Source: an uncultured bacterium (lineage in GTDB: Bacteria > Patescibacteriota > Minisyncoccia > Phycocordibacterales > UBA9973). From it: a stretch of 47,700 nt of DNA. Shown one piece after another: positions 3,640 to 22,802 of this stretch (positions are counted from its first letter, which is position 1; each line of letters begins with the position of its first letter). The stretch spans positions 1 through 47,700 of the forward strand of contig CAISUD010000041.1 of assembly GCA_903888625.1 (NCBI GenBank), read 5' to 3'. The translations under genes were made by a program, and so were the position numbers. Under the pieces are notes generated by a model, which saw only the letters and a list, made by a program, of their open reading frames with translations, did no database searches and had not been told where the DNA came from.

Positions 3640-3683
3640 TGTGGATAACCTGCTTTGATTTTCGGTATCTGTTCGGTTATAAT
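3640..3683 (+). promoter_or_regulatory. Promoter P1 of the LexA-Dcm gene with candidate operator repeats
   Basis: TGTGGATAAC at 3640-3649, -35 TTGATT at 3655-3660, a 17-nt spacer, and -10 TATAAT at 3678-3683. The spacer holds two direct repeats, TTCGGTAT and TTCGGTTAT, 11 bp apart. The ATG is at 3715. Confidence 0.55.
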
Positions 3684-3714
3684 ATAAGTGTAGCACAAAT
3701 GAGATTTTAAAGCA

Positions 3715-5292
3715 ATGAAAACTATAACAAAAAAACAAAAACAAGTTCTTGATTTTATAAACACCTATATATTGGAAAACGGTATCTCTCCCACTATTGA
3801 AGAAATACGAAAAAAGCTAAAACTCAAAGCGGTTTCCACTATTCATGAACATATAAATTCTTTAAAAGAAAAAGGATATCTTTCAAAAAGTGAAAATTCA
3901 GCCAGAAGTATTACTTTAGAGAAAGAAATAAAAACAGTTTTAGAAATTCCGATTATGGGGAAAATTAAAGCCGGTGCTCCGATTGAAGCAATTGAAGACT
4001 TTCAGGGAACAATTGCTGTTTCTAATCCTAATATAAAGAATTCAAAAGAATATTATGCCTTGCGTGTTTCTGGCGATAGTATGATAGAAGAAGGTATTTT
4101 TGATGGAGATATTGTAATTATAAAAAAACAATCTGTCGCAGAAAACGGGCAGACAGTAGTAGCTATCATTGACGACAACCAAGCTACTCTAAAAAAATTA
4201 TACAAAGAAAATAACAAATTCAGACTTCAACCTAGAAATCCTAATATGAAACCTCTTTTTAGAACTGATGTAGAAATCAGGGGTGTTGTGATTCAGATCA
4301 TTAGGAATGTATCAAACGAACCAGAAAAAAAGGTTGAGAAAAAAACAAAGCTCCAATTTAGAACTATTGATTTATTTGCAGGAATTGGTGGAATAAGAAT
4401 TGGTTTTGAAAGAGTTGGGTTTAAAACAGTCTTTGCTAACGATTTTGATAAGCAATGTGGAATAACTTATGATTTGAATTTTCCAACATCAAAATTGGTC
4501 ATAGAAGATATTAGAAAAATTGGAATTGATGATTTGCCAAAATTTGATTTTTTGCTTGGCGGTTTCCCTTGTCAGGCTTTTTCTATCGCAGGCTATCAGC
4601 AAGGATTTAAGGACAAGAAAGACAGAGGTAATTTATTTTTTGATATTGCAAAAATAATCGATGTTAGAAAACCAACAGGATTTTTACTTGAAAATGTAAA
4701 AAACTTAAAAAGTCATGATGAGGGTAAAACTTTTAAAGTTATTGAAGAAACATTAAAAAATCTTGGCTATTATGTCAAAATAAAAGTTTTAAATAGTATG
4801 GAGTATGGAAATATTCCACAAAACAGAGAACGTGTTTATATCGTAGGCTTTAAAGATAAAGATTATTATGAAAAATTTGAATTTCCTAATCCGATCAAGC
4901 TTACTAAAAAAATTACTGATTTATTGGAAAAAAATGTGTCTGAAAAATATTATTACAATGGAAAACCATTATATGAAAGATTAAAGAATTTTATAAAAGA
5001 AGAAGGAAAAGTCTATCAGTGGCGTAGACAATATGTTAGAGAAAATAAAAGTGGGGTCTGCCCTACGCTTACAGCAAACATGGGAACTGGAGGACATAAT
5101 GTGCCAATTATTAAAGATAAGAAAGGTATTAGAAAATTAACTCCATTAGAGTGTGCTAGAATTCAAGGCTTTCCAAATGATTTTAAATTCCCTAAAATAG
5201 CTGACTCTGCTTTATACAAGCAAATTGGAAATTCTGTTAGTGTTCCAGTTATTGAAGCTGTTGCAAGACAAATGATGAAAGCAATAGAATAA
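3715..5292 (+). CDS. LexA (wHTH + S24 autopeptidase) fused to a DNA (cytosine-5)-methyltransferase
   Basis: 525 aa in a single frame. The LexA part shows HTH STIHEHINSLKEKGYL, Ala-Gly site KAGAP, Ser nucleophile SGDSM and Lys ATLKKL. The Dcm part shows motifs DLFAGIGG (I), GFPCQAFS (IV), ENVKNL (VI), QNRERVY (VIII) and GNSVSVPV (X). Confidence 0.9.
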   Translation: MKTITKKQKQVLDFINTYILENGISPTIEEIRKKLKLKAVSTIHEHINSLKEKGYLSKSENSARSITLEKEIKTVLEIPIMGKIKAGAPIEAIEDFQGTIAVSNPNIKNSKEYYALRVSGDSMIEEGIFDGDIVIIKKQSVAENGQTVVAIIDDNQATLKKLYKENNKFRLQPRNPNMKPLFRTDVEIRGVVIQIIRNVSNEPEKKVEKKTKLQFRTIDLFAGIGGIRIGFERVGFKTVFANDFDKQCGITYDLNFPTSKLVIEDIRKIGIDDLPKFDFLLGGFPCQAFSIAGYQQGFKDKKDRGNLFFDIAKIIDVRKPTGFLLENVKNLKSHDEGKTFKVIEETLKNLGYYVKIKVLNSMEYGNIPQNRERVYIVGFKDKDYYEKFEFPNPIKLTKKITDLLEKNVSEKYYYNGKPLYERLKNFIKEEGKVYQWRRQYVRENKSGVCPTLTANMGTGGHNVPIIKDKKGIRKLTPLECARIQGFPNDFKFPKIADSALYKQIGNSVSVPVIEAVARQMMKAIE

Positions 5293-5295
5293 TTT

Positions 5296-6198
5296 TTAAA
5301 AAATAAAATCTACTTTAATTTTTTTAATTTGTTTAATTTGTTTTTCTAAATAATCTTTTCCCATATTTTCGTCACGGAGATTTACATGTGATCCATTAAA
5401 GGATGTGCTAATTTTAACAGCCATATCATTTTCTATCCAAAACTTAGCTCTTAATCTTAATTCCAAACGTTTTTTTGATTTGTATATTTTAGTATTACCG
5501 TATTCGTTCGCTATAAAATTATCTAAAAATACAGATTTACCTCTAACGGTAGTTCTTTGTTTATTTACACTAACTTTATTTAATTCATTTATATTTAAAA
5601 CAGCACCTGCAAAATAAAAATTTGTTCCATTTCCTTGTATACTCGGTCTAAGTATAAAAAAATAATATATTTTTTTTATTGGATAAGTTCTTTTTAAAAT
5701 TTCATACTTATCTTTATAAAGTTTTATCCACTTATCTTTAATTTCATCATAGCTATGTGAGGCAAAAAGACTATCTAAATCAATACCTGCATCTGCAAAG
5801 TTTTGACCAAGTGAGGCTTCTCCACTATCCCCATTTAAAACATTACCTGAAGCATTAACTTTCACATTAAGCATTTTTATATCAGCTCCCCAATTTTCAC
5901 GTTCATTATATATATCTATTGGATAAGAACCAGCACCAACAGGCTTGACATCTAAAGCTTGTGTAAACCATTGCTCTATATGTTCCTTTGGTATCTGAAT
6001 TGGCAATGACCTTTGTTCTTTTTTTGATTCGGGTTGAGCAAATAAAGATTTTATTATAAAGTATTTAATTATGTTAACCGCTTTGTCATCTAAAAAATTA
6101 AGTAATTCCTTGTGTTTTAGTGGATTAATTACAAAACTTTTCATACTATTTAATTTGTCCTTCTTTTTTATCATATTTATTCTATGAGTATGACACAA
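5296..6198 (-). CDS. Putative Type II restriction endonuclease partner of the Dcm fusion
   Basis: 300-aa ORF convergent with the MTase, with 3 nt between the stops. PIDIY...GADIKM is a candidate PD-(D/E)xK motif. The call rests mainly on context. Confidence 0.5.
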   Translation of the reverse strand: MCHTHRINMIKKKDKLNSMKSFVINPLKHKELLNFLDDKAVNIIKYFIIKSLFAQPESKKEQRSLPIQIPKEHIEQWFTQALDVKPVGAGSYPIDIYNERENWGADIKMLNVKVNASGNVLNGDSGEASLGQNFADAGIDLDSLFASHSYDEIKDKWIKLYKDKYEILKRTYPIKKIYYFFILRPSIQGNGTNFYFAGAVLNINELNKVSVNKQRTTVRGKSVFLDNFIANEYGNTKIYKSKKRLELRLRAKFWIENDMAVKISTSFNGSHVNLRDENMGKDYLEKQIKQIKKIKVDFIF

Positions 6199-10144: not shown

Positions 10145-10294
10145 ATGGAAAAAGTATCCGTAGCAACAGAAGGAGAGAAAAGCAAAATCATTGACGCTGC
10201 AGCGCAAATTTTTGCCGACCTCTTTATCAGTTATTTGGACCAAGTCGAATTATCCAAGAAAGAGGATATTAATTTTCCTAGTGAAAAATTATAA
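10145..10294 (+). CDS. Small hypothetical protein (49 aa)
   Basis: This is the ATG-initiated version of track ORF 10088..10294 (MEKVSVATEGEK...). It sits directly upstream of the replication gene. Confidence 0.35.
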   Translation: MEKVSVATEGEKSKIIDAAAQIFADLFISYLDQVELSKKEDINFPSEKL

Positions 10295-10313
10295 ATTAAT
10301 CATTGAAATTAAA

Positions 10314-11988: not shown

Positions 11989-13557
11989 ATGCAAGAAAAT
12001 CAAAATAAAAAAGCAATAATTTACTGCAGAGTTTCAACTTCTGACCAAGCCGATAATGGACAATCAATTGAAGCTCAAGAAATTATTTGTCGTAGAGAGG
12101 CAGAAAAAGACGGATATGAAGTTGTTGGAGTAATAAAAGACGAAGGCAAAAGCGGTAGTACTTTAAAAAGACAAGGTATTCAGGAATTAATAAGAAAAGT
12201 AATGGCAAAAGAAGTAGACATCGTCGTAGTAATTCATTCTGACAGAATCGCGAGGAATACAATTGATCACATAACATTACGAAATTTATTCAAAGAAAAA
12301 GGAGTAATTCTTAAATGCTTAAATAAACCAATCGTAGGAAATACCGCCACTGATATTGTAATTGATAACATTATGGCTTCAGTAAATGAAATGCAATGCT
12401 TAATTACTGGAGAAAAAGTTATCGCTACTTTAAACGAGAAGGCAAAAGCAGGATATTTCCCTTCCTATCCCCCGCTCGGGTATAAAAATGTAAAAAATCC
12501 AAATCCGATGGATGGTAGATTATCAGAAAAAATTGTGGTGCAAGACGAATTAGTTGCACCTCTACTAAAGAAAGCTTTTGAACTTTATGTAACTGGAAAT
12601 TATAATGTCTTTGATGTTAGCGACATTTTATTTGAAAGTGGATTAAGAACTAGAAAAGGTTGTAAATTATCAGAAAGTAGACTTTATGAACTTTTAAGAA
12701 ATCCTTTTTACAAAGGAGAATTACATTGGGGAAGTATTCACATTACGGACCCAAAACTTGTAAAACATAAACCAATTATTGATGAATATACTTTTAATGC
12801 AGTTCAAAAAATAATGGACGGGAAAAATCATCACTCTTGCCGTAAAAGGAAATACGTATGGCTTTTAAATGGATTTTTGCGTTGTTATAAACATTCTTGT
12901 CGCTATACTGCTGAATGGCATTTAAAAAAGAAGATTGCTTATTACCATTGCACCAACAAAAGTGGTTGTGGAAAATATTCAGAACAAAACAAGTTAGAAG
13001 AAATGATTGCCAATAAATTTAAAACATTGGAATTCAATAAAGAATTTATTGATAAAGTAATTGAAAAAGCTAAAAATATTTTTTATGAAAGAAGAAAAAT
13101 ATACGACAATAAAAAACAAACATTAATTAATCAAAGAACTGCTTTTGAAACAAAAAGAAAAGTTGCCGAAGATGAATTACTTGAAAAAACTATCACTAGA
13201 GAAGCTTTTACTAGAATTAACGATGGACTTATTAAAGAACTCGAAAATATTGATAGTCGTTTAATAGATTTAGAAAAAGACAGGAATGTAAATGTTGATA
13301 TTGCTAAAGAAATAATTAGCCTGACTGACAACATTTATGACACCTACAAAAAAGCTTCACCAAAATTGAAAAAACAATATTTAGGATTTTTTTGGGAAAG
13401 ATTTGAGATTGCTGATGGACTTATAATTAAATCCGTTCCCTCTATCCTATTTGACGAACTTTTGAAGTTAGAACAGGTGTACCAAAAAACCGAAAATGCT
13501 TATATACCTAGTGTTTATAGTGAGGTTATAAATTCTTCTAACTGGCTCCGGGGGTAG
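11989..13557 (+). CDS. Large serine recombinase / integrase
   Basis: 522 aa. It has a resolvase-type catalytic N-terminus (IIYCRVSTSDQ, DRIARN), a recombinase domain, a Cys-rich zinc ribbon (CYKHSC...CTNKSGC) and a C-terminal coiled-coil. The last 15 nt overlap the tRNA-Asn 3' end. Confidence 0.9.
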   Translation: MQENQNKKAIIYCRVSTSDQADNGQSIEAQEIICRREAEKDGYEVVGVIKDEGKSGSTLKRQGIQELIRKVMAKEVDIVVVIHSDRIARNTIDHITLRNLFKEKGVILKCLNKPIVGNTATDIVIDNIMASVNEMQCLITGEKVIATLNEKAKAGYFPSYPPLGYKNVKNPNPMDGRLSEKIVVQDELVAPLLKKAFELYVTGNYNVFDVSDILFESGLRTRKGCKLSESRLYELLRNPFYKGELHWGSIHITDPKLVKHKPIIDEYTFNAVQKIMDGKNHHSCRKRKYVWLLNGFLRCYKHSCRYTAEWHLKKKIAYYHCTNKSGCGKYSEQNKLEEMIANKFKTLEFNKEFIDKVIEKAKNIFYERRKIYDNKKQTLINQRTAFETKRKVAEDELLEKTITREAFTRINDGLIKELENIDSRLIDLEKDRNVNVDIAKEIISLTDNIYDTYKKASPKLKKQYLGFFWERFEIADGLIIKSVPSILFDELLKLEQVYQKTENAYIPSVYSEVINSSNWLRG

Positions 13558-13560
13558 GGA
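13546..13560. repeat. Proximal att-like direct repeat inside tRNA-Asn exon 2
   Basis: Exact copy of 1660-1674. Confidence 0.55.
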
Positions 13561-13583
13561 TCGAACCTACGACCAATCGCTTA

Positions 13584-13915
13584 CATGTAATCTCCTATTA
13601 CTAGGGGCATGGACTATATCATCTCCATATTCATAAATAATTTTTATGAACTTAGGAGCAAGGCGCTTCGCGCTCTGAATTTTTAAATCAGAGAACTACT
13701 CCATAAATGGATAGTCTCTACACCTTCCTTCGACAAGCTCAGGATAAATCCCCAACTAATCAAAGGCTTGGCTCGGGATTGCCCTCTTCAAAGAGGGTTT
13801 CCCCGAATTCACCTTGTTTTCGATCTATTTTTCAATAGAAAGCTGCGTAATACTAAAAGTTAGTATATTTCCTTTTGTCTGGCATAAATTTATTATACCA
13901 TGGGTGGAAATGTCC
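13584..13915 (-). ncRNA. Group I self-splicing intron (IC3-like, tRNA anticodon-loop type), ORF-less
   Basis: The minus strand contains GGTGTAGAGACTATCC (R element, 13709-13724) and GATATAGTCC (S element, 13611-13620). It also contains AATTCGGGGAAACC and CCGAGCCAAGC, which match the Azoarcus/cyanobacterial tRNA intron core as I recall it. The 5' exon ends in U and the intron ends in G. Confidence 0.8.
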
Positions 13916-14198
13916 ACAGGCGACCGCTCTACCGCTGAGCTACCCCGGAATTTGTACTCCAAAGATAGCTCAAACGGAACCGCTGGTCACTAGTATTTTT
14001 CTGCTGAAAAATCTTGCGACCCCGACTCGGCACCTTCGTGCCTCCGTCTTTGAAATGCTTTAATTACGCATTTCAACTACCCCGGAATATATTTAATTAA
14101 GATAAAGAACAATGTGTTGTGCCCAAAGAAGCTCTCCTTCGGTGCTACCGTCTCCACCTAAACCGAAAATTTAAAGCAGTTTAAATTTACGATTTATG

Positions 14199-14271
14199 TG
14201 GACCCAAGCGGACTCGAACCGCTTACCTCCTCATTGCAAATGAGGCGCTCTACCAGATGAGCTATGGGCCC
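14199..14271 (-). tRNA. tRNA-Ala(UGC)
   Basis: GGGCCCATAGCTCATCTGGTAGAGCGCCTCATTTGCAATGAGGAGGTAAGCGGTTCGAGTCCGCTTGGGTCCA. It has the G3:U70 identity pair, anticodon loop TTTGCAA and discriminator A73. CCA is not encoded. Confidence 0.9.
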
Positions 14272-14320
14272 AGTTAATTACTATATTTTATCTTATTTTA
14301 GCAAAAATGCAACTATATTT

Positions 14321-14719
14321 CTATCTATTTAAATAAGTGACCGAGAGTTGCAAAACCGTGGCAATACAAACCCAAACAAGGTAAGGCAAATTCATCAACG
14401 CCACCCATTTCAAATGTGGATAAATCACGATCATTGCCCAAACCAAAGTCCCTAAAACCAGGATCACATCTACTGCTGCTAGGTAATTGTTTTGTAAACC
14501 AAACTGAATCGGAGTAAAAATTAAATTAAAAATTAAGTTAAGCGCAAAAGGCAACAATACAATCAGGGGTAATTCTTTTCTAAAAACTTTATAAAAAACT
14601 GCCCCAAAAGAAATAAAAATGAGAACATAAAGAAATGACCAAATAGGACCGAAAGCCCAAGAAGGCGGAGCCCAAGATGGTTTGATTAAATGCGAATACC
14701 AATTATATGCGTTTTTCAT
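14321..14719 (-). CDS. tspO: TspO/MBR family tryptophan-rich sensory protein
   Basis: 132 aa with the characteristic N-terminus WYSHLIKPSWAPPSWAFGPIWSFLY and five hydrophobic spans. Confidence 0.8.
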   Translation of the reverse strand: MKNAYNWYSHLIKPSWAPPSWAFGPIWSFLYVLIFISFGAVFYKVFRKELPLIVLLPFALNLIFNLIFTPIQFGLQNNYLAAVDVILVLGTLVWAMIVIYPHLKWVALMNLPYLVWVCIATVLQLSVTYLNR

Positions 14720-14760
14720 AAATCAATTATAACAAAAAAATTCTCCCTTTGCGAACTTGT

Positions 14761-15729
14761 TTATTTTAAAAATTGAGTTACTAATCCTACCATTTGATCT
14801 TTCTTTTCTGGATTACTTTCTGCAATTAAAAGAGTAAGTGCAGTAAGTGCATTTGGATTGATATTTTTACCACCTTTAATATTTGTTCTTCGCAAAAACC
14901 AAATAAAAGCAAAAGCACCAGAACGTTTATTGCCATCGACAAAAGGATGATTTTTAACCATAAAATACAAAAGGTGCGCTGCTTTTTCTTCGAGCGTTTT
15001 ATAAACATCTTGTCCGCCAAAAGATTGCATCACATTTCCAATAATTCCTTCTATACTTCCAGCATTCCTTTCTGTGGCAAAAATATCTGAAGCCTCCCCT
15101 TTTTTGAGAAGTTCGGAACGTAAATTTTTTATTGCTTCGTTTAATTCGATTGCGGAAAACTTAACAGATTTTTTAGTAAAACCTATAGAAATTAATTTTT
15201 CTTTATCATAAGCATCGATAGACATCCAAGTACTAGAAAATTCTTTTATCAATTCAAGAATTGTTTTTGGATCAAGCAATACATGTTCTGGTAATAATGA
15301 CTGAACACTAGCCACAGCTTGCATAAAAGATTCATAATTTTTAGCAATTTGTTTTTTGTTTATGGTATAGCCTTTTGTAATATGTTCTTTAAGTGTCTTG
15401 GTTGCCCATTTTCTGAATTCTGTTGCAGTTTTCGAATTAACCCTGTAACCAACAGAAATAATTGCGTCTAAACTATAAAACTGAGTATTGTAAGTTTTTC
15501 CATCGTTCGCAGTATTCCGGAAATTCCGGATAACTGAATTTTTATCTAACTCTTTAGTTTTAAAAATATTAACAAAGTGTTCACTAATAGTTCTAATATT
15601 GACTCCAAAAACTTCAGCAATTTGAGCCTGTGTTGCCCAAATAGTCTCATGCTTAGAATCCCCTCGAAGTTCGATAGCTCCATTTTTTGCCTGATAAATT
15701 ACTAAATTATTTTTTATATTTTTCTTCAT
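14761..15729 (-). CDS. RhuM-like N-terminal domain fused to a Fic/DOC domain
   Basis: 322 aa. The RhuM-type segment is IWATQAQIAEVFGV...FYSLDAIISVGYRVNSKTATEFRKWAT. The C-terminal Fic motif is HPFVDGNKRSG. Confidence 0.8.
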   Translation of the reverse strand: MKKNIKNNLVIYQAKNGAIELRGDSKHETIWATQAQIAEVFGVNIRTISEHFVNIFKTKELDKNSVIRNFRNTANDGKTYNTQFYSLDAIISVGYRVNSKTATEFRKWATKTLKEHITKGYTINKKQIAKNYESFMQAVASVQSLLPEHVLLDPKTILELIKEFSSTWMSIDAYDKEKLISIGFTKKSVKFSAIELNEAIKNLRSELLKKGEASDIFATERNAGSIEGIIGNVMQSFGGQDVYKTLEEKAAHLLYFMVKNHPFVDGNKRSGAFAFIWFLRRTNIKGGKNINPNALTALTLLIAESNPEKKDQMVGLVTQFLK

Positions 15730-15788
15730 TCTTTTATTTTATCATATTTTGTTTTTTAACAAAAAAATTCTCCCTTTGCGAATTGTTT

Positions 15789-16046
15789 TTACTTTGATTT
15801 TTTTGTAAGGGTTATAAGTTTTAACTTCTCAACCCTTTTCAATTTTTTAATTCTGGATTCTTCCTTTGAAGCATTTGATCTGTTTTTAAATTTTTTAGAA
15901 TAAATCAATTCCACCGGCCGTCGAGCCCGTGTATACCTAGCCCCAAGCTTACTGCCATTATGCTCCCCCACCCGTCGTTTCAAATCTGTCGTAATACCAG
16001 TATACAAACTCCAATCCCTGCATTTTAAAATATATAGGTGGTACAT
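15789..16046 (-). CDS. GIY-YIG nuclease superfamily protein (UPF0213/YhbQ-like)
   Basis: Start moved to MYHLYILKC, because the track N-terminal extension overlaps a terminator hairpin. Supporting motifs are YHLYIL...LYTGIT...R..EH and a conserved E in KEESRIKKL. Confidence 0.7.
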   Translation of the reverse strand: MYHLYILKCRDWSLYTGITTDLKRRVGEHNGSKLGARYTRARRPVELIYSKKFKNRSNASKEESRIKKLKRVEKLKLITLTKKSK

Positions 16047-16057
16047 AAAAATGTGTA

Positions 16058-16091
16058 CAAAAAAAAGAAAACCCCTTATGATTAAGGGGTT
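16058..16091 (-). terminator. Rho-independent terminator
   Basis: On the minus strand AACCCCTTA-ATC-TAAGGGGTT is followed by TTCTTTTTTTT. Confidence 0.5.
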
Positions 16092-16267
16092 TAAGAAATT
16101 TTCAGACAAGAATCATTCTTAAATTGATCATATAATTCTTTTTGTTCTTTATTAGCTTCTTTTATTGCCGATTTTATAACCTTTTTTTGTTGGCTAATAG
16201 GCCTTGAAAAAAACTCTGCGAAGTCTGACTTTTCTTTATTTTTACTAAAAAATCTAGATATTTTCAT
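16091..16267 (-). CDS. Small hypothetical protein (58 aa)
   Basis: MKISRFFSKNKEKSDFAEFFSRPISQQKKVIKSAIKEANKEQKELYDQFKNDSCLKIS. It is below the track cutoff and ends in the terminator above. Confidence 0.3.
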   Translation of the reverse strand: MKISRFFSKNKEKSDFAEFFSRPISQQKKVIKSAIKEANKEQKELYDQFKNDSCLKIS

Positions 16268-17001: not shown

Positions 17002-17436
17002 TTATTTACCCATTCTCTTTAAATGGAGTTGATGAAATTTATTTAAAACCTCTCGTTCTCTTTCTATGTATTTGTTTAATATTTCCTCATTTAATAGTAT
17101 GTTGGTATATTTACCTTTTCTTGTCCTTTTTGTGTTAGATAATAAACCCGAGGAAAGATTTTTACCGTAAGTTCCATGACTTATATGATTCCTAAAATTA
17201 TTAATTTCATTTATTTCTTTACAAAGATCGTTTCCTGTAAAATCTTTAAGAATTTGAAGTTTAATAGAAATCTGCTGCGAGTATAAAAAATCTAAAATTG
17301 ATCTGAGTTTTAAATCAACCTGACTAATAATATAAACAAATTCAATACTTAAATTAGTATCAATTAAATTAAATAGAACAACAAATTGTCCAATCTTTTC
17401 TAGAATCTTTCTATTGTCTTCTAGTGGAGATTTCAT
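17002..17436 (-). CDS. HEPN-like protein (Rx4H motif)
   Basis: 144 aa, all-helical in appearance. INNFRNHISHGTYG contains R-x4-H as in HEPN, DUF4145 and Abi-type domains. Confidence 0.5.
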   Translation of the reverse strand: MKSPLEDNRKILEKIGQFVVLFNLIDTNLSIEFVYIISQVDLKLRSILDFLYSQQISIKLQILKDFTGNDLCKEINEINNFRNHISHGTYGKNLSSGLLSNTKRTRKGKYTNILLNEEILNKYIEREREVLNKFHQLHLKRMGK

Positions 17437-17651: not shown

Positions 17652-17694
17652 TGTGGATAACTTCCTTGTTTAGGTTATCTTTAGGTATTATAAT
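17652..17694 (+). promoter_or_regulatory. Promoter P2 of the LexA-MTase gene with candidate operator repeats
   Basis: TGTGGATAAC at 17652-17661, -35 TTGTTT at 17666-17671, a 17-nt spacer, and -10 TATAAT at 17689-17694. Direct repeats TTAGGTTAT and TTAGGTAT lie 11 bp apart. The layout matches P1. Confidence 0.55.
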
Positions 17695-17717
17695 ATATTA
17701 TATATAAAAAAGTCAAC

Positions 17718-19154
17718 ATGATAAATACACAATTAACAAAAAAACAGGCTGAGGTCATTCAATATGTAAAAAAATTTCAATCAAGGAAAAATTATTCCCC
17801 TTCCTTAAGTGATATTGCAAATCATTTTAATGTTTCAATCCCTACAATTCATGAACATGTAGAATATTTAAAAAAGAAAGGTTATTTAGAAAAACAAAAA
17901 GGTAAAAAACGTTCTATTCAACCAATCAAAAATAAAGATTTACTAATTATCCCAATCTTGGGAAAAATCGCTGCTGGTCAACCGATAGAAGCAATAGAAA
18001 TTCCAGAAGGATTTGTAACTCTTACTAAAGAGGAAGCAAAACCATCAGAGAAATATTATGCACTTCGTGCTATTGGAAACAGCATGATAGAAGATGGGGT
18101 TTTTGACGGAGATACTGTAGTTATTAGAGAACAGAAAACAGCAGATAATGGTCAAATGGTGGTTGCCATTATTGACGATAATCAAGCTACCTTGAAACGA
18201 ATATATTATGAAAAAAACAAAATACGTTTACAGCCAGCTAACCAAACATTACTACCTTTTTTTAGAACAGAAGTTGAGATTAGAGGTATTGTAGAAAAAA
18301 TAATTAGAAATCCAAACAATGAAATTGAAGAAATACGCAAAAAAGAAAATCCAATAGTTAAACATCTCACAAAAGATTCAGAAAGTATCTTTATAAATAA
18401 TGAATATAAAGTAAATAAAATTTATAACATTGATTGCCTTGAACTAACAAAAAAAATAAAAGACGATTCAATAGATCTTATTTTTGCAGATCCACCCTAT
18501 AATTTAAGCGGGAGTAATTTTAAAATGAAATTTACAAAATCAGGCGGTAGTGATTTAAATACCAATAAAGGAAAATGGGATCATTATAGTGATATGGAAT
18601 TTGAAGAATTTACAAAAAAATGGTTGTCTGAATGTTTTAGAATTCTTAAAAAAAATGGTTCAATTTGGGTTGCGGGCTCTTACCATAACATATATTTAAC
18701 GGGTTATTTAATGAAAAAAATTGGTTTTGAAATTTTAAATGAAGTTTTATGGCATAAGTCTGATGCTACCCCTAATTTATCTTGCACAAGATTTGTTGCT
18801 GACCATGAAAATTTTATTTGGGCACGAAAAGGCAAAGGAAATATATTTAATTATGCTATAATGAAAAAGTTAAATGGTGGAAAACAAATGCGATCACTTT
18901 GGACAAAAGGTAAAACAACAGGCGGAAAAAGAATACATCCAACCCAAAAGCCAGAATGGCTTTTGGAAAGAATCATAACGGCAACATCTAATAAAAATAG
19001 TATTGTATTTGACCCATTTCTTGGTTCAGGAACAACTGCAGTCGTTGCAAAAAAATATGAAAGACAATATTTAGGTGCTGAATTAGATCAAGATTATTAT
19101 AAGAAAGCAATTGAAAGAATAAATCAAACAATAATATGCAAAAACATTATTTAG
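17718..19154 (+). CDS. LexA (wHTH + S24 autopeptidase) fused to a beta-class N6-adenine/N4-cytosine DNA methyltransferase
   Basis: 478 aa in a single frame. The LexA part shows PTIHEHVEYLKKKGYL, AAGQP, IGNSM and ATLKRIY. The MTase part has motif IV FADPPYNL before motif I FDPFLGSGTT, which is the beta order. Confidence 0.9.
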   Translation: MINTQLTKKQAEVIQYVKKFQSRKNYSPSLSDIANHFNVSIPTIHEHVEYLKKKGYLEKQKGKKRSIQPIKNKDLLIIPILGKIAAGQPIEAIEIPEGFVTLTKEEAKPSEKYYALRAIGNSMIEDGVFDGDTVVIREQKTADNGQMVVAIIDDNQATLKRIYYEKNKIRLQPANQTLLPFFRTEVEIRGIVEKIIRNPNNEIEEIRKKENPIVKHLTKDSESIFINNEYKVNKIYNIDCLELTKKIKDDSIDLIFADPPYNLSGSNFKMKFTKSGGSDLNTNKGKWDHYSDMEFEEFTKKWLSECFRILKKNGSIWVAGSYHNIYLTGYLMKKIGFEILNEVLWHKSDATPNLSCTRFVADHENFIWARKGKGNIFNYAIMKKLNGGKQMRSLWTKGKTTGGKRIHPTQKPEWLLERIITATSNKNSIVFDPFLGSGTTAVVAKKYERQYLGAELDQDYYKKAIERINQTIICKNII

Positions 19155-19888
19155 TTTTAGGAGACGCACTAAAAGTTTTATCAAAAATAAAAAATAAAGT
19201 AGATGCGGTTATTGTTGATCCACCTTACAATACAGCAAATAAAAATACTAAGGTTTTAAAAGGCAGAAAAGCAAGGTCATCTGATTTTGGCAAGTGGGAT
19301 TATTTTACAAATGATGAATACTTAAATTTTACAGAAAATTGGATAAAATTAGTACAATTGTCTTTAAAAGAAAATGGAAATCTCTTGATTTTTTCAAAAT
19401 TAGAATATGTTAGTGACATAAAAAGAATCTATGAAAAATTAGGTTTTAAACATCATGGTACTATTATTTGGCACAAAACAAATCCTGCCCCACAAATAAG
19501 AAAAAATGGATTTCTGTCATCCTGTGAAGCTATTTTATGGGCAACTAATGGTTTTGATAATAAAAAAATATCATATACATTTAATTTTTCAAAACAAAAT
19601 GAAATGCATAATTTTATTCAAACACCAATTTGTATGGGGCATGAAAGAACTGCTCATCCAACGCAAAAACCTAAAAAGGTTTTATCACATTTAGTAAAAA
19701 TATTTACAAATGAAAAAGATATAATTCTTGATTGTTTTGCTGGTAGTGGAACATTAGCAGAAGTAGCCAATGAACTAAAAAGAAATTCAATCAGCATAGA
19801 AAATGATATAAATTATTTTAAAATAATGAAAGAACGTCTAAAAAATATAAAAGGTGTAAAAATTTTGAAAATAAAAAATAGTATTTAA
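19136..19888 (+). CDS. Second beta-class N6/N4 DNA methyltransferase
   Basis: 250 aa. VIVDPPYNT (motif IV) precedes ILDCFAGSGT (motif I). There is a 19-nt overlap with the upstream fusion gene. Confidence 0.85.
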   Translation: MQKHYLVLGDALKVLSKIKNKVDAVIVDPPYNTANKNTKVLKGRKARSSDFGKWDYFTNDEYLNFTENWIKLVQLSLKENGNLLIFSKLEYVSDIKRIYEKLGFKHHGTIIWHKTNPAPQIRKNGFLSSCEAILWATNGFDNKKISYTFNFSKQNEMHNFIQTPICMGHERTAHPTQKPKKVLSHLVKIFTNEKDIILDCFAGSGTLAEVANELKRNSISIENDINYFKIMKERLKNIKGVKILKIKNSI

Positions 19889-21189
19889 AACTTTACTTCT
19901 ATTTCCTCATATTTTTCTATTGCCCAATTTACTCTATATGCATGTCTATTTCCTTTTTTATCAACAGCTAAAAATACATTTGGAATTCGATCATTATTAC
20001 GTTTCTTTTCTAAACTAAAAATTTTTTTTATCTTTTCAAAATTAAATTCTTCTTCTGCAAAAATCCAAACTTTACTAAAAGCGTTGTTTTTATTATGCCC
20101 ATGGTCTAAATAGTTATTCCAAGAATGCTCTAACTCTAATTTTTGTTTTGTTCCACCAGAAAAAATTAATTCAACATCAGGACCACCTGAACTTATAACT
20201 TTTACATCAGTAACTTCTTTTCCATCTATTGTAAAATTTCTTTTCCAGTCTAAGAATAATCTTAAGAAAGTACTAAATTCGTCTTCTTTTCTTACTTCAT
20301 AATCAACTTCAGTTTCACAATATTGTTTTTTTAATTCTTCCCAACTATAATCTAGCCTCTCTTTTATGTTTTTATCTTCTTTTGAAAATTCAATAAGTGC
20401 ATCATCAAGTGAATATAATTTATAAGAATTTCCATCTTTATCTTGGCAAGTTTTTGTAAGTAAATTTACATTTATTAATAACGGTTTATTATCAAAAAGA
20501 TCTTCATTCTTTAAGGCATATATTCCACCACCCCAAGGATTTTCTTTTGTTGGTAAAACAATTAAAGGATGAAAATTCTTCTTTTTTAATTTTTTACCTT
20601 GCCAAAGATTAATTAAATTAAATTGTAAAATAGTATTGCTAGAATCAACAAAATTATTTACTAAACTTCTTATAAAATATTGTTCATTTGAACTTTTAAA
20701 CACAGATTGTTTTGCATAACTAGCACTATCTCTTTTAAGAGGTATTTTATTATTTTTTTCTAACATTGTTTTTACATGAGCTTGAGACTCCCTAACATTA
20801 CGTAACCATGCTTCATTCTCTAAAAGATTTTTTAGTTTTTCATCATTGGTATATGCAGAAAGTTCCTCACGATTAAGAACAATTTTCCCATTACAAATAG
20901 CATTAACCAATTTAGAATCCTTACCTAAACTGCATGAATTTACAATACTGGAACCTCTTTTGACTAAACCTCTCCATGTCAAAAGCGTGGAAAAATTCCC
21001 CCTTAACCCACCAAAACGTGTGTCATCTAAATATTTATAATCTTTTTTATTAATTTTTAAACGAACAAGTTCGCTTTTATGACGATTTGATAGTTGGGCT
21101 AAGTCATTAGTATTAAAAAAACTATTACGATAAAAACTTGCGATATCAAGAGCTAAAAATAAAATGTTTGGTAATTTAATTTTATACAT
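19885..21189 (-). CDS. Putative restriction endonuclease
   Basis: 434-aa ORF convergent with the two MTases, with a 4-nt overlap of the stops. The C-terminal GGPDVELIF...KLELEH is a possible PD-ExK-like site. The call rests mainly on context. Confidence 0.5.
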   Translation of the reverse strand: MYKIKLPNILFLALDIASFYRNSFFNTNDLAQLSNRHKSELVRLKINKKDYKYLDDTRFGGLRGNFSTLLTWRGLVKRGSSIVNSCSLGKDSKLVNAICNGKIVLNREELSAYTNDEKLKNLLENEAWLRNVRESQAHVKTMLEKNNKIPLKRDSASYAKQSVFKSSNEQYFIRSLVNNFVDSSNTILQFNLINLWQGKKLKKKNFHPLIVLPTKENPWGGGIYALKNEDLFDNKPLLINVNLLTKTCQDKDGNSYKLYSLDDALIEFSKEDKNIKERLDYSWEELKKQYCETEVDYEVRKEDEFSTFLRLFLDWKRNFTIDGKEVTDVKVISSGGPDVELIFSGGTKQKLELEHSWNNYLDHGHNKNNAFSKVWIFAEEEFNFEKIKKIFSLEKKRNNDRIPNVFLAVDKKGNRHAYRVNWAIEKYEEIEVKF

Positions 21190-22116
21190 TTATTTTTTAG
21201 TAAATTTTTTATAAACTTGTTTAACTAACATCATTGCATAATCAATATCTTCAAGATTTTTTACCTTAAAAAGAGACACGTGTTTATTGTAATGCTCCAT
21301 ACTAAAGCTTTGATAAGTAACTCTTTTTTCCGGATCATTTAAATCTTCTGGTTTAAATCTCAAAAGATGTATTTCAATAAATGATTTCTTTGGGTTTAAC
21401 TCTACTACATTTGAATTTCCAATTTTACAGCCTACGTAGTTTTGTACTGGAGAGAGTTTCATATTTGGATCTAATGCCACAATTTTTTCACTTAAAACAT
21501 CAAAAATTTCTCTTGATTCTTTCCAGTTATCTTTAAAAAGACCCTCAATGCTATAATTTTTTATTTCTTTGGTAACTGATTCAAACCTTGGATCTTTCAT
21601 AATTAAATCGATAGACTCACAAGAATCGGAAGCTTCTATCTTATTAAAGAAAATCGAATTATTTTCAAAAATCTTTATTTCATAAAGGTCAAAAGCCATG
21701 TTTCTAAAATTAACAGAGTTTATTTGGTGTTGTGTAAATGAAGGAGAAATAAAAACAATACGAGATTGTGACCAATCTACATCACCACGACGCAAATGTT
21801 CTTTTTTATGTTCAAAATATTCTTGCAGAAAAAAATCTTTTTTGTTTAATAAAATACCAAGATATGAAAAACCCTGGTCTACGATAGAAAAATTACGGTC
21901 TTTTTTATACTCAATTATAATGAATGCTCTAGTTTCAGGATTCCAAGCAAGTGTATCAAATCTAAAATTATCAACTTTCAGTTCTGAAGCAATAAACTCA
22001 AATTCAAATATGGTTTTAAGATTTTTCTCAGTCAATTCTTGTATATTTTTTTCAAGTTTAATTTTCTTTTCAGAAACAGGAACTAATTTAGTTTTTTCTA
22101 TTTTAAAAAGTGACAT
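21190..22116 (-). CDS. PD-(D/E)xK nuclease-like protein (NucS/DUF91-type N-terminal module)
   Basis: 308 aa. FDTLAWNPETRAFIIIEYKKD...DQGFSYL fits the D...E-x-K module. Its stop abuts the ATG of 19885..21189 with a 0-nt gap. Confidence 0.55.
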   Translation of the reverse strand: MSLFKIEKTKLVPVSEKKIKLEKNIQELTEKNLKTIFEFEFIASELKVDNFRFDTLAWNPETRAFIIIEYKKDRNFSIVDQGFSYLGILLNKKDFFLQEYFEHKKEHLRRGDVDWSQSRIVFISPSFTQHQINSVNFRNMAFDLYEIKIFENNSIFFNKIEASDSCESIDLIMKDPRFESVTKEIKNYSIEGLFKDNWKESREIFDVLSEKIVALDPNMKLSPVQNYVGCKIGNSNVVELNPKKSFIEIHLLRFKPEDLNDPEKRVTYQSFSMEHYNKHVSLFKVKNLEDIDYAMMLVKQVYKKFTKK

Positions 22117-22128
22117 AGCTATATAATA

Positions 22129-22392
22129 CTACTTTCTCCCCCTAATCCAAAGCTTCTTAATAAAAGATATCGAAAGCGTGGAGAGTATAAACGCGATGGC
22201 TGGAACAATAGCGCCGAGGAAGGGTTTTGGGAGGTGGGCGAAGAGGAAAAATAAGACTATGACAATATAGGTCAAAATGGCAATTAAAATTTTGCGAGCA
22301 GAGCTCGTTTCCCATGCTTTATCTTTTTCCACGCGAAGATTTCGTTCTTTGATTTCAGCGATATCTTTTTTAATTTGTTCTAAATCGTTCAT
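22129..22392 (-). CDS. Small two-pass membrane protein
   Basis: 87 aa with an N-terminal amphipathic helix followed by two hydrophobic spans. It is visibly more GC-rich than the adjacent R-M genes, so it is probably backbone. Confidence 0.6.
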   Translation of the reverse strand: MNDLEQIKKDIAEIKERNLRVEKDKAWETSSARKILIAILTYIVIVLFFLFAHLPKPFLGAIVPAIAFILSTLSISFIKKLWIRGRK

Positions 22393-22538
22393 CCCGGTAC
22401 TAAAATTTTAAATCTTTACTAATAATTTTTAACATATATTTGCCTGCTAATTATACACCTTTTTACCAAAAACTTACCCAAAAATTTAGTACGGGACAAG
22501 TACCCTTATTATACAACGTTATCATTTATATTAAACTC

Positions 22539-22718
22539 CTATTTTTCTACAAATTCATAATTTTCTTTATTTCCTCCGATTCTAGAATAATATTCACAAC
22601 CATCAACATAAATCGCTTTACAGGTACAATAAGTTAGCACCTTATTTGTATCAAAGGGTATCTTATCAAAACACTTTTTACACAAACAATATGATTTTTT
22701 TAATTTTTTAGTTTTCAT
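22539..22718 (-). CDS. Small Cys-rich (zinc-ribbon-like) hypothetical protein, 59 aa
   Basis: MKTKKLKKSYCLCKKCFDKIPFDTNKVLTYCTCKAIYVDGCEYYSRIGGNKENYEFVEK. It is just below the track cutoff and is preceded by promoter P3. Confidence 0.35.
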   Translation of the reverse strand: MKTKKLKKSYCLCKKCFDKIPFDTNKVLTYCTCKAIYVDGCEYYSRIGGNKENYEFVEK

Positions 22719-22760
22719 AAATATTTAATTATCTATCATTGCCTTGATTCATTATTTAAC

Positions 22761-22802
22761 ATTATATTAATAATATCCTTATATTTCAAGTATTTATCCA
22801 CA
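22761..22802 (-). promoter_or_regulatory. Promoter P3 with the same upstream TGTGGATAA box as P1/P2
   Basis: On the minus strand: TGTGGATAA (22794-22802), -35 TTGAAA (22784-22789), a 17-nt spacer, and -10 TATAAT (22761-22766). The 15-mer TATAATTGTGGATAA is shared with P2. Confidence 0.4.

What the first reader, a model, noticed from the sequence alone, without database searches (positions are those of the whole stretch)
17652..22116. R-M system 2: LexA fused to a beta-class N6/N4 methyltransferase, plus a second MTase and a translationally coupled nuclease pair
ORF 17718..19154 repeats the system 1 idea with an unrelated MTase class. A full LexA (PTIHEHVEYLKKKGYL, AAGQP, GNSM, ATLKRIY) is followed by DPPY, then FxGxG. 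A second beta-class MTase overlaps it by 19 nt; two MTases usually mean an asymmetric (Type IIS-like) site. On the opposite strand, a 308-aa NucS/DUF91-like PD-(D/E)xK protein ends exactly where a 434-aa nuclease candidate starts (0-nt gap). The restriction activity may therefore be two-subunit or carry an accessory sensor. The same LexA module fused to two different MTase families in one 48-kb window suggests selection for SOS-linked control of modification rather than chance.
Basis: partly seen in the sequence, partly recalled or inferred. Interest (0 to 1): 0.8.

Follow-up and report, generated by a model that had tools for sequence, protein, structure and literature searches.

The report
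LexA-fused methylase controlling a restriction system
A restriction-modification system in an uncultivated (CPR/Patescibacteria-type) bacterium makes its protective DNA methylase as a fusion to a complete, apparently self-cleaving LexA DNA-damage repressor, and this proved to be one example of a large, apparently undescribed LexA clade dedicated to DNA methylases of every class.

Summary
ORF 17718..19154 encodes a complete LexA (DNA-binding domain, Ala-Gly cleavage site, Ser/Lys dyad) fused to a beta-class DNA methyltransferase (M1). A second beta-class MTase (M2) overlaps it by 19 nt. A 434-aa gene (R434) converges on them.

The M1-M2-R434 trio is conserved in many CPR genomes. R434 is always followed by two MTase genes, so a Type IIS-like R-M system is well supported. 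R434's nuclease fold is only weakly supported.

The 308-aa protein (P308) is not a dedicated partner. It is PADLOC candidate PDC-S18, is absent from most homologous systems, and also sits beside Type I and Type ISP systems or alone.

New here:
- The LexA module belongs to a clade fused, or operon-linked, to MTases of all classes.
- Each promoter carries a private 11-bp-period direct-repeat operator abutting the -10 box. Its sequence covaries with the LexA recognition helix.
- An invariant DnaA-box 9-mer lies just upstream in most of these promoters.

Most likely mechanism: the fusion autorepresses the M operon, and damage-triggered self-cleavage raises methylation. I found no publication describing this. 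I rate it a new variant of a known kind, of high interest.

The parts
17652..17660 (+). DnaA-box-consensus 9-mer TGTGGATAA, ending 5 nt upstream of the -35 of the M-operon promoter
   Evidence: There are 5 copies in the window against 0.38 expected. An exact copy lies within 120 nt upstream in 33 of 56 LexA-MTase promoters and in 0 of 13 distant stand-alone LexA promoters, and it is phase-locked to the operator. The protein that binds it is unknown.
17666..17694 (+). Inferred core promoter: -35 TTGTTT (17666-17671), 17-nt spacer, -10 TATAAT (17689-17694)
   Evidence: Read from the sequence. The generic promoter scan is uninformative in this AT-rich DNA. The same -10 placement recurs in homologous promoters.
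17669..17686 (+). Putative LexA operator: direct repeat TTTAGGT-tatc-TTTAGGT with an 11-bp period. It overlaps the -35 and ends 2 nt before the -10.
   Evidence: It is the only exact copy in the window. Period-11 repeats of at least 6 nt occur in 11 of 11 orthologous promoters against 23% of controls and in 46 of 56 metagenomic fusion promoters. The second unit abuts the -10 in 45 of 56. The unit covaries with the recognition helix.
17718..19154 (+). LexA-M1 fusion gene. DNA-binding domain aa 4-65; cleavage site A86-G87 (17973-17978); S24 domain aa 79-192 with S122 and K160; linker about aa 199-232; beta-class MTase aa 252-465 (DPPY, then FLGSG).
   Evidence: The MTase part is closest to CcrM (6pbd, 1.8e-54).
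19136..19888 (+). M2, a second beta-class (DPPY) MTase that overlaps M1 by 19 nt
   Evidence: closest solved relative is the DpnA-type MTase 5hek, 1e-34. It is co-conserved with M1 and R434 in 15 loci.
19885..21189 (-). R434, the candidate restriction endonuclease. It converges on M2 with a 4-nt overlap. The C-terminal domain (aa 298-434, 19888-20298) carries invariant E304, D338, E352-x-E354, H355, H363 and H365.
   Evidence: No Pfam, NCBIfam, PADLOC or PDB sequence or profile hit. The family has 186 clusters. It is always followed by two MTase genes where there is room. AF2 pLDDT is 85.8 for the full protein and 92 for the C-terminal domain, and fold hits are only weak PD-(D/E)xK-type matches.
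21190..22116 (-). P308, a PDC-S18 family protein (RecB/NucS-type nuclease motifs plus C-terminal DUF5655). It abuts R434 with no gap but is not a conserved component of the system.

Best explanation
This is a three-gene, Type IIS-like restriction-modification system. It has two m6A-type beta-class methyltransferases, M1 and M2, presumably one for each strand of an asymmetric site. It also has a convergently transcribed endonuclease, R434, with N-terminal recognition domains and a C-terminal nuclease-like domain.

M1 is made as a fusion to a complete LexA repressor. The fusion dimerises and binds a private direct-repeat operator, TTTAGGT-N4-TTTAGGT, that lies over the -35/-10 of the M1-M2 promoter. 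Methylase output is therefore self-limiting, as in SsoII-type MTases.

The Ala-Gly site and the Ser/Lys dyad are strictly conserved. DNA damage (RecA filaments) should therefore trigger self-cleavage, detach the DNA-binding domain, derepress the operon and raise the methylase-to-nuclease ratio. That would protect repair-synthesised or under-methylated DNA. It would also close a feedback loop in which self-restriction damage induces more methylation.

Shown by computation:
- the domain content and intact catalytic residues;
- conservation of the trio;
- the existence, position and helix covariation of the operator;
- the absence of that operator on the R side.

Inferred:
- binding of the operator by the fusion;
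- RecA-dependent cleavage;
- the direction of the effect on methylation;
- nuclease activity of R434.

P308 is a separate PDC-S18 defence gene. It is probably co-transcribed and translationally coupled with R434 in this genome.
For: Domains and catalytic residues:
- Domain content is shown. A86-G87, S122 and K160 align with E. coli LexA A84-G85, S119 and K156.
- These residues are invariant in all 51 fused relatives.

Conservation of the system:
- About 90 clusters share the fusion architecture.
- The M1-M2-R434 trio is conserved.
- R434 is followed by two MTase genes in all 24 loci with room for both, and the second type of pair was confirmed with Pfam.
- Seven candidate catalytic residues of R434 are invariant in 26 of 26 sequences.

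Operator:
- All 11 orthologous promoters have a direct repeat of at least 6 nt, against 23% of 274 controls (p = 9e-7). In the metagenomic set the figure is 46 of 56.
- The second unit abuts or overlaps the -10 in 45 of 56 promoters.
- The unit covaries with the recognition helix (Fisher p = 5e-11).
- It is absent from promoters of LexA-less M1 genes.
- It is private: one exact copy per locus, and none upstream of R434 in relatives.

Precedents and related forms:
- Direct-repeat LexA boxes in the same 11-bp register are known (GTTC-N7-GTTC, PMC8565304).
- LexA modules fused to MTases of all classes form one clade.
- Unfused clade members sit in operons with MTases.
Against: - There is no experimental evidence for DNA binding, cleavage or methylation.
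- RecA and any stand-alone LexA of this genome lie outside the window, so SOS competence of the host is assumed.
- Natural variants lacking the S24 domain keep the same operator (L017; P0079, P0080 and P0098). The protease domain is therefore not needed for autoregulation.
- After cleavage the S24-MTase fragment could be degraded rather than accumulate, which would reverse the predicted outcome.
- R434 has no significant structural match (best E = 1.8e-3, TM no higher than 0.43). Its His-rich motif could fit another nuclease fold.
- The covariation and repeat statistics treat related sequences as independent.
- The NJ tree has no support values.
Confidence: 0.6

Rival explanations
1. The LexA module is only an autoregulatory and dimerisation module, like the SsoII-type N-terminal HTH. 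The S24 domain serves as a dimer interface, and there is no link to DNA damage.
For: S24-less variants keep the DNA-binding domain and an identical operator (L017; P0079, P0080 and P0098). LexA-less M1 orthologs, or ones with another HTH, also exist (L012, L013, L021; P0109, P0115 and P0120). MTases with N-terminal autoregulatory domains are well known (references in PMC3874152).
Against: The Ala-Gly site, Ser and Lys are invariant in 51 of 51 representatives taken at 50% identity. That is hard to explain if cleavage were irrelevant. S24-containing forms outnumber DBD-only forms by about 30 to 1 among close relatives.
Confidence: 0.2
2. Damage-triggered suicide. Cleavage destabilises or inactivates the S24-MTase fragment. 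Methylation then falls and R434 kills the damaged or phage-infected cell, giving an abortive-infection or addiction-like outcome.
For: In E. coli both LexA cleavage fragments are degraded by ClpXP/Lon (background knowledge, not tested here). The R gene has its own promoter and carries no LexA operator.
Against: Cleavage also derepresses synthesis of new fusion protein and of M2. The MTase domain is complete and separated from LexA by a linker of about 30 aa, so it should stay active.
Confidence: 0.1
3. The LexA-MTase fusions are the organism's global SOS repressors, and the methylase is a passenger.
For: NCBI annotates such proteins as 'transcriptional repressor LexA'. They exceed the lexA equivalog cut-off. 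uvrC, uvrA and uvrB lie next to the island.
Against: Two fusions with different operator specificities coexist in this window: TTTAGGT here and TTCGGT in system 1. Each exact operator occurs only once, and none lies upstream of uvrA, uvrB or uvrC. The clade is separate from the roughly 200-aa stand-alone LexAs.
Confidence: 0.05
4. R434 is not a restriction endonuclease, so M1 and M2 are orphan or regulatory methylases and the locus is not an R-M system.
For: R434 has no hit to any Pfam, NCBIfam, PADLOC or PDB sequence or profile, and no significant fold match.
Against: It is strictly syntenic with two different MTase pairs across CPR and Firmicutes-type genomes. It has an invariant E...D...ExE motif on an alpha-beta-beta-beta-alpha-beta core. 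The weak fold hits are enriched for PD-(D/E)xK proteins: YaeQ, CdiA-CT, the LlaBIII nuclease and NucS.
Confidence: 0.1

Closest known systems
SsoII / Ecl18kI / EcoRII / MspI / ScrFIA-type methyltransferases with an N-terminal autoregulatory DNA-binding region
   Same: A DNA-binding module is fused to the N-terminus of an R-M methyltransferase. An operator lies in the MTase's own promoter. The logic is self-limiting MTase expression.
   Different: Here the module is a complete LexA: a winged HTH plus an S24 self-cleaving protease domain with an intact cleavage site. This adds a potential DNA-damage input. The operator is an 11-bp-period direct repeat rather than a palindrome. The same module is attached to MTases of all classes.
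Canonical LexA SOS repressor (TIGR00498), especially the direct-repeat-binding alphaproteobacterial type (GTTC-N7-GTTC)
   Same: The domain order, Ala-Gly cleavage site and Ser/Lys dyad are the same. The score is above the equivalog cut-off. The operator overlaps the protein's own promoter. The direct-repeat register of 11 bp matches; one sub-class (L006, L060, L065 and others) literally uses GTTCG-N6-GTTCG.
   Different: It is not a stand-alone protein of about 200 aa. It carries a 250-650 aa DNA MTase at its C-terminus, or sits in an operon with one. The operators appear private to the MTase promoter rather than defining a repair regulon. Several paralogs with different specificities can coexist in one genome.
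C-protein (controller) regulated Type II R-M systems
   Same: A dedicated transcription factor encoded within the R-M cassette times and limits expression.
   Different: There is no separate C gene and no C-box upstream of the R gene. Control is on the M operon only. The regulator is LexA-family rather than Xre-family.
Type IIS R-M systems with two methyltransferases (for example MboII, HpyAVI/MnlI, PleI/MlyI)
   Same: There are two small beta-class MTases plus one endonuclease whose predicted nuclease-like domain is separate and C-terminal. M1 resembles CcrM/HinfI-type enzymes and M2 resembles DpnA/M1.HpyAVI-type enzymes.
   Different: R434 has no detectable sequence similarity to any solved or modelled REase. 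The recognition site and cleavage position are unknown.
PADLOC phage-defence candidate PDC-S18 (applies to P308)
   Same: Full-length HMM match: E = 7.4e-88, positions 1-301 of 302.
   Different: Nothing different in the protein itself. In this genome it abuts R434, which is not a general feature of either family.

Membership tests
LexA repressor (TIGR00498 / PF01726 + PF00717) | N-terminal LexA winged-HTH DNA-binding domain | tested here: met
   PF01726 at aa 4-65, 3.2e-12. It aligns with LexA structures over aa 5-198.
LexA repressor (TIGR00498 / PF01726 + PF00717) | S24 domain with an Ala-Gly cleavage site and a Ser/Lys catalytic dyad | tested here: met
   PF00717 at aa 79-192, 7.5e-26. A86-G87, S122 and K160 align with E. 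coli A84-G85, S119 and K156. They are invariant in 51 fusions.
LexA repressor (TIGR00498 / PF01726 + PF00717) | Score above the curated equivalog cut-off | tested here: met
   160.4 bits against a cut-off of 110.95.
LexA repressor (TIGR00498 / PF01726 + PF00717) | Stand-alone protein of about 200 aa controlling a DNA-repair regulon | tested here: not met
   The protein is a 478-aa fusion. The operator is unique in the window and absent upstream of uvrA, uvrB and uvrC. The rest of the genome is not available.
LexA repressor (TIGR00498 / PF01726 + PF00717) | RecA-stimulated self-cleavage and operator binding | not testable with these tools
   This needs biochemistry. The operator is inferred from repeat statistics, position and covariation.
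Beta-class N6/N4 DNA methyltransferase (PF01555) | Family HMM match with motif IV (DPPY) N-terminal to motif I (FxGxG) | tested here: met
   M1 scores 1.7e-51 and has DPPY then FLGSG. M2 scores 1.2e-40 and has DPPY then FAGSG. An m6A product is inferred from DPPY only.
Type IIS restriction-modification system | Two MTases (or one fused double MTase) accompanying one endonuclease | tested here: met
   R434 is followed by two MTase genes in all 24 loci with room for both.
Type IIS restriction-modification system | Asymmetric recognition site with cleavage at a fixed distance outside it | not testable with these tools
   This needs methylome data or in vitro digestion.
Type IIS restriction-modification system | Endonuclease with separable recognition and cleavage domains | tested here: inconclusive
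   The AF2 model is multi-domain with a compact C-terminal domain (pLDDT 92) that bears the invariant acidic motif. No significant fold match was found.
PD-(D/E)xK nuclease superfamily (R434 C-terminal domain) | Alpha-beta-beta-beta-alpha-beta core with D at the start of strand 2 and (D/E)xK on strand 3 | tested here: inconclusive
   The topology, and E304/D338/E352-x-E354, fit a BamHI-like D...ExE variant (the BamHI comparison is from memory). Foldseek hits (YaeQ, CdiA-CT, LlaBIII, NucS) have E of at least 1e-2 and TM no higher than 0.43. Profile-profile comparison with the P308 nuclease was negative.
SsoII-type autoregulatory MTases | N-terminal DNA-binding region fused to the MTase, with an operator in its own promoter | tested here: met
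   The architecture is shown and the operator, all computational. The DNA-binding fold differs: LexA winged HTH plus S24 rather than a short HTH. It is therefore an analogue and not a homologous member.
C-protein controlled R-M | Separate controller gene with a C-box upstream of C/R | tested here: not met
   There is no separate regulator ORF. No cognate operator lies upstream of R434 in relatives.
PDC-S18 (PADLOC) for P308 | Full-length match to the family HMM | tested here: met
   PDLC04945, E = 7.4e-88, aa 1-302 against profile positions 1-301 of 302.
NucS / DUF91 for P308 | NucS N-terminal domain plus a C-terminal RecB-like nuclease domain above the Pfam threshold | tested here: not met
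   Only sub-threshold NucS_C or HSDR_N_2 hits occur, in P308 or its homologs. The nuclease motifs sit at the N-terminus and are followed by DUF5655. P308 shares the nuclease fold class, not the family.

The most novel reading that the evidence does not exclude
R-M systems of CPR/Patescibacteria, and some other uncultivated lineages, have captured a dedicated LexA lineage as a portable, self-cleaving controller. It is fused to, or co-transcribed with, methyltransferases of every class. Each copy has a private, co-evolving direct-repeat operator.

This would make methylation respond to DNA damage, including damage caused by the system's own nuclease. It would be a Type II analogue of restriction alleviation and a built-in safeguard against autoimmunity.

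The invariant DnaA-box 9-mer next to the operator would add a second input from a universally conserved host factor (DnaA). That input would couple methylase expression to replication and let the cassette function in any new host.
Probability: 0.35. Interest if true: 0.85.

Novelty: new variant of a known kind. Interest (0 to 1): 0.78.

Why it matters
How Type II R-M systems avoid killing their host after DNA damage or repair synthesis is poorly understood. Restriction alleviation is known for Type I systems only. A methylase physically fused to the SOS sensor would be a direct molecular solution to that problem.

It would also add a new regulatory class of R-M systems beside C-proteins, antisense RNAs and SsoII-type MTases.

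It shows LexA repeatedly diversifying its operator specificity as a cassette-private regulator. Annotation pipelines currently label these proteins simply 'LexA', which would mislead SOS-regulon reconstructions in CPR genomes.

The work also defines a new candidate restriction-endonuclease family (R434, 186 clusters). The operator/recognition-helix pairs form a natural set of orthogonal repressor-operator pairs that can be tested directly.

Tried and rejected
1. Frameshift or assembly artefact at the LexA/MTase junction. Rejected: the architecture recurs in about 90 clusters and 11 genome loci.
2. P308 and R434 as an obligate two-subunit nuclease. Rejected: P308 is absent from most trios, matches PDC-S18, and sits with Type I and ISP systems or alone.
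3. LexA-M1 also repressing the R-side promoter through the 2-mismatch repeat at 22465-22482(-). Rejected: 0.97 such hits are expected by chance, and no relative has a cognate operator upstream of R434.
4. The 9-mer as a general CPR promoter element. Not supported: outside LexA-MTase promoters its excess is modest, and it occurs in both orientations.
5. Sequence, profile and fold searches for R434 against Pfam, NCBIfam, PADLOC, PDB sequences, a PDB profile and Foldseek (full length and C-terminal domain). No significant match.
6. hhalign of the R434 C-terminal domain against the P308 family. No relationship.
7. The generic sigma-70 promoter scan. Uninformative in this AT-rich DNA: 35 found against 34.6 expected.
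8. Fusion present in cultured phage or plasmid records. None covers at least 80% of the protein.
9. Literature. Eight searches found no description of natural LexA-MTase fusions. The one directly relevant paper, Sanchez-Osuna et al. 2017 (Environ Microbiol, Patescibacteria SOS network), is not held. I therefore cannot exclude that it mentions them.

Full report
**1. Observation**

ORF 17718..19154 (478 aa) matches three Pfam families:
- LexA_DNA_bind at aa 4-65;
- Peptidase_S24 at aa 79-192;
- N6_N4_Mtase at aa 252-465.

The LexA portion alone exceeds the NCBIfam lexA equivalog cut-off, at 160 bits against 110.95. It aligns end to end with solved LexA structures. A86-G87 corresponds to the cleavage bond, and S122 and K160 to the catalytic dyad. 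The module ends at 'IIRN', where E. coli LexA ends. A linker of about 30 aa then leads into the MTase.

M2 (19136..19888) is a second beta-class MTase and overlaps M1 by 19 nt. Both enzymes have DPPY before FxGxG. From general knowledge of the motif, DPPY suggests m6A rather than m4C. M1 is closest to CcrM, and M2 to DpnA/M1.HpyAVI-type enzymes.

On the minus strand, the TAA stop of the 308-aa ORF directly abuts the ATG of the 434-aa ORF, with no Shine-Dalgarno sequence. The window's other fusion, 3715..5292, is LexA fused to a C5 MTase. Its LexA module is 51% identical to this one.

**2. The fusion is not an artefact, and the system is a conserved trio**

About 90 protein clusters, 52-81% identical to the query, share the LexA+S24+N6_N4 architecture. 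They come mostly from CPR/Patescibacteria-labelled MAGs, and NCBI names them 'transcriptional repressor LexA'.

Gene contexts show a conserved unit: LexA-M1, then M2 overlapping it, then a convergent gene of about 434 aa. In all 24 genome loci with room for two genes downstream of R434, two MTase genes follow it convergently. There are two kinds of pair:
- the M2+M1 beta/beta pair, in 15 loci;
- a D12-class MTase plus a permuted N6_N4-type MTase, in 9 loci. These are mostly Firmicutes-type MAGs, and Pfam confirmed the pair in three of them.

In three more loci the contig ends after the first MTase. Two MTases per nuclease is the signature of an asymmetric, Type IIS-like site.

**3. R434**

The family has 186 clusters, all annotated as hypothetical, and none has a Pfam domain. 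Searches against NCBIfam, PADLOC, PDB sequences and a PDB profile found nothing.

AlphaFold models are confident: pLDDT 85.8 for the full protein and 92 for aa 298-434. The C-terminal domain has an alpha-beta-beta-beta-alpha-beta core. E304 lies on the first helix, D338 ('GGPDV') at the start of the second strand, and E352-L-E354-H355 on the third strand. H363 and H365 follow. All seven residues are invariant in 26 of 26 homologs, down to 42% identity.

This resembles a BamHI-like D...ExE variant of the PD-(D/E)xK site (a comparison from memory). Foldseek gives no significant hit. The weak hits are enriched for PD-(D/E)xK-type proteins, namely YaeQ, CdiA-CT, the LlaBIII nuclease domain and NucS.

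R434 is therefore a strong restriction-enzyme candidate by context and a weak one by fold. It would be a new REase family.

**4. P308**

P308 is a full-length match to PADLOC's single-gene candidate PDC-S18, at E = 7.4e-88. Its family alignment has invariant D54, E69-x-K71 and Q81-xxx-Y85. These are the RecB/Cas4/NucS-type nuclease motifs. A DUF5655 domain follows.

P308 is absent from most M1-M2-R434 loci. Among the genome loci it is present only in L012, L015/L016 and L032, where it lies on the opposite strand. Its homologs have varied neighbours:
- L038: 4 nt upstream of a Type I-like HsdR;
- L039: next to HsdM;
- L123: 2 nt downstream of a Type ISP enzyme;
- L041, L122 and L124: no R-M neighbour.

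P308 is thus a promiscuous companion of R-M systems and a defence-island gene. It is not a subunit of R434, although here the two genes are probably co-translated.

**5. The LexA module belongs to an MTase-dedicated clade**

I searched aa 1-205 against 1.84 billion representatives clustered at 50% identity. There were 228 hits below 1e-30. Most of the best 65 or so are long proteins (295-890 aa) with LexA at the N-terminus.

All 51 long ones contain both LexA_DNA_bind and Peptidase_S24. Family counts overlap because one protein can match several related families:
- N6_N4_Mtase: 31
- Eco57I: 7; N6_Mtase: 5; MmeI_Mtase: 4; TaqI_C: 2
- D12 class: 5
- C5 DNA_methylase: 3

The cleavage-site Ala-Gly, the Ser and the Lys are invariant in all 51.

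In an NJ tree without support values, the fused modules form essentially one clade, separate from the roughly 200-aa stand-alone LexAs. S1 and S2 fall in the same sub-clade but are not sisters.

A metagenome scan found more than 562 candidate loci and kept 80. Of the 77 usable ones, 56 are fusions or truncated fusions. Short LexAs belonging to the clade are followed immediately by MTase genes, in L046, L058, L061 and L112.

No record among 50,697 phage genomes or 72,556 plasmids contains a match covering at least 80% of the fusion.

**6. Operator**

Every LexA-M1 promoter carries a direct repeat with an 11-bp period between the -35 and the -10. In the window it is TTTAGGT-tatc-TTTAGGT at 17669-17686. 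System 1 has TTTCGGT-atctg-TTCGGT at 3660-3677.

- All 11 orthologous promoters have an exact repeat of at least 6 nt, against 23% of 274 control upstream regions (Mann-Whitney p = 9e-7).
- In the metagenomic set, 46 of 56 fusion promoters have one, against 3 of 13 distant stand-alone LexAs.
- The second unit abuts or overlaps a -10 hexamer, at offset -6 to +2, in 45 of 56 promoters.
- The unit sequence covaries with the recognition helix (Fisher p = 5e-11, not phylogenetically corrected):
  - xxTAH helices go with TC[TG]A units in 21 of 24 cases;
  - xxT[VI]H with TTCGG in 30 of 46;
  - KST[VI]H with GTTCG in 7 of 10;
  - xPT[IV]H with TTAGG in 4 of 5.
- M1 orthologs without LexA lack the repeat (L012, L013, L021).
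- The exact operator occurs once per locus. No cognate copy lies upstream of R434 in relatives. The window's 2-mismatch site at 22465-22482(-) is within chance expectation.
- No such site precedes uvrA, uvrB or uvrC in the window.

Direct-repeat LexA boxes in the same register are known in Alphaproteobacteria, as GTTC-N7-GTTC (PMC8565304).

**7. An unexpected extra element**

The exact DnaA-box consensus 9-mer, TGTGGATAA or its complement TTATCCACA, lies just upstream of the -35 at both window promoters (17652-17660 and 3640-3648).

- It occurs 5 times in the window against 0.38 expected.
- It lies within 120 nt upstream in 33 of 56 fusion promoters, where about 0.08 would be expected. It is present in 0 of 13 distant LexA promoters, and in none of the LexA-less M1 promoters.
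- It is invariant while the operator and the recognition helix change.
- It occurs in both orientations (28 plus, 9 minus).
- It is phase-locked to the operator, with a gap of 0-1 nt or 10-16 nt.

This pattern suggests a conserved host factor bound on the same face of the helix. DnaA is the obvious candidate. This is inference only.

A third copy, at 22794-22802(-), lies 4 nt upstream of the -35 of a strong promoter. That promoter heads the minus-strand string of a small Zn-ribbon ORF, orf87, P308 and R434.

**8. Mechanism**

The best-supported model has five steps:
1. The fusion dimerises, through the S24 domain and possibly the MTase domain.
2. It binds its private operator over the core promoter.
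3. It thereby autorepresses M1-M2.
4. RecA-stimulated self-cleavage at A86-G87 releases the DNA-binding domain.
5. The operon is derepressed, and the M:R ratio rises during DNA damage.

Self-restriction itself causes such damage, so the circuit would form a negative feedback against autoimmunity.

The rivals are a dimerisation-only role for S24, damage-triggered loss of methylation (suicide), a global SOS regulator, and R434 not being a nuclease. They are listed separately with their evidence.

Natural S24-less variants keep the same operator (L017, P0080). Autoregulation therefore does not need the protease domain. The protease domain is nevertheless retained about 30 to 1 with invariant catalytic residues, which argues that cleavage matters.

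**9. Context**

The right half of the window is core chromosome: uvrC, uvrA, uvrB, class II RNR, TGT, MreB and ProRS. The region from about 2.7 to 22.4 kb is a lower-GC variable island. The island holds:
- both LexA-MTase systems;
- a serine recombinase;
- tRNA-Ala;
- TspO;
- RhuM/Fic;
- a GIY-YIG protein;
- a HEPN-like ORF.

**10. Novelty and limits**

Eight literature searches found no description of natural LexA-MTase fusions. The one directly relevant paper, on the Patescibacteria SOS network (Sanchez-Osuna et al. 2017), is not held. Prior mention there cannot be excluded.

Everything about binding, cleavage, methylation specificity and restriction is inferred. The statistics treat related sequences as independent. 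RecA and any stand-alone LexA of this organism lie outside the window.

I rate the finding a new variant of a known kind: an autoregulatory MTase fusion combined with a LexA-type repressor. It is of high interest.

Noticed in passing
window 3640-5292 (+): System 1 (LexA fused to a C5 MTase, 3715..5292) has the same promoter layout. The DnaA-box 9-mer is at 3640-3648, the direct repeat TTTCGGT-atctg-TTCGGT at 3660-3677, and the -10 TATAAT at 3678-3683. Its operator unit differs from system 2, so the two LexA fusions probably do not cross-regulate.
   Followed up: partly
window 17652-17660, 3640-3648, 22794-22802(-), 14415-14423, 47559-47567; loci L042-L121: An exact DnaA-box consensus 9-mer (TGTGGATAA) is strongly and specifically associated with LexA-MTase promoters. 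It is present in 33 of 56 of them and in 0 of 13 distant LexA promoters. It is invariant, occurs in both orientations and is phase-locked to the operator. Its binding factor and role are unknown.
   Followed up: partly
window 22129-22802 (-): A strong sigma-70-like promoter (TTGAAA-17-TATAAT, 22789..22761) lies just downstream of a 9-mer copy. It precedes a 59-aa Cys-rich Zn-ribbon ORF (about 22540-22719, weak DUF7695), an 87-aa membrane or coiled-coil ORF (22129-22392), then P308 and R434, all on the minus strand. This may be a single R-side transcription unit.
   Followed up: no
loci L010, L022-L029, L032, L033: R434 homologs (42-55% identical) in Firmicutes-type and some CPR MAGs are paired with a completely different MTase pair: a D12-class MTase of about 350 aa plus a permuted N6_N4/UPF0020-type MTase of about 435 aa. 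No LexA is present. The nuclease family has therefore exchanged methylase partners.
   Followed up: partly
L017 9022-10161(-); P0079, P0080, P0098: Natural variants of M1 keep the LexA DNA-binding domain and the identical TTTAGGT-N4-TTTAGGT operator but lack the S24 protease domain. These are ready-made 'non-cleavable' controls.
   Followed up: partly
L046, L058, L061, L112: Unfused LexA genes of the same clade (196-207 aa) lie immediately upstream of MTase genes: an 839-aa NPPF-type MTase, one or two C5 MTases, or an SPPF-type MTase. They have the same direct-repeat operators. Fusion and fission of the LexA-MTase pair appears to be recurrent.
   Followed up: partly
L038, L039, L123 and window 21190-22116: PDC-S18/P308 homologs are often placed within a few nucleotides of restriction genes of unrelated types (Type I HsdR, Type ISP, R434). 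This hints at a general accessory or back-up role beside R-M systems, for example a modification-dependent nuclease.
   Followed up: partly
window 11989-16109: Island landmarks: a large serine recombinase (11989..13557), tRNA-Ala (14198-14271, minus strand), TspO (14321..14719), a RhuM/Fic protein (14761..15729) and a small GIY-YIG-like ORF (15789..16109). The block between the two R-M systems may be an integrated element.
   Followed up: no
window 17002-17436 (-): A 144-aa ORF next to the M promoter has faint PADLOC hits to CARF_HEPN/Csx1 models (E = 2e-3 to 6e-3) over a region containing an R-x4-H-like motif (FRNHISH). It may be a small HEPN protein.
   Followed up: no
window 5296-6198 (-) and 10191-11861 (+): Two sizeable ORFs have no hit in any of the libraries they were scanned against: a 300-aa ORF converging on the LexA-C5 MTase (likely system 1's endonuclease; Pfam, NCBIfam, PADLOC) and a 556-aa ORF (Pfam only).
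   Followed up: no
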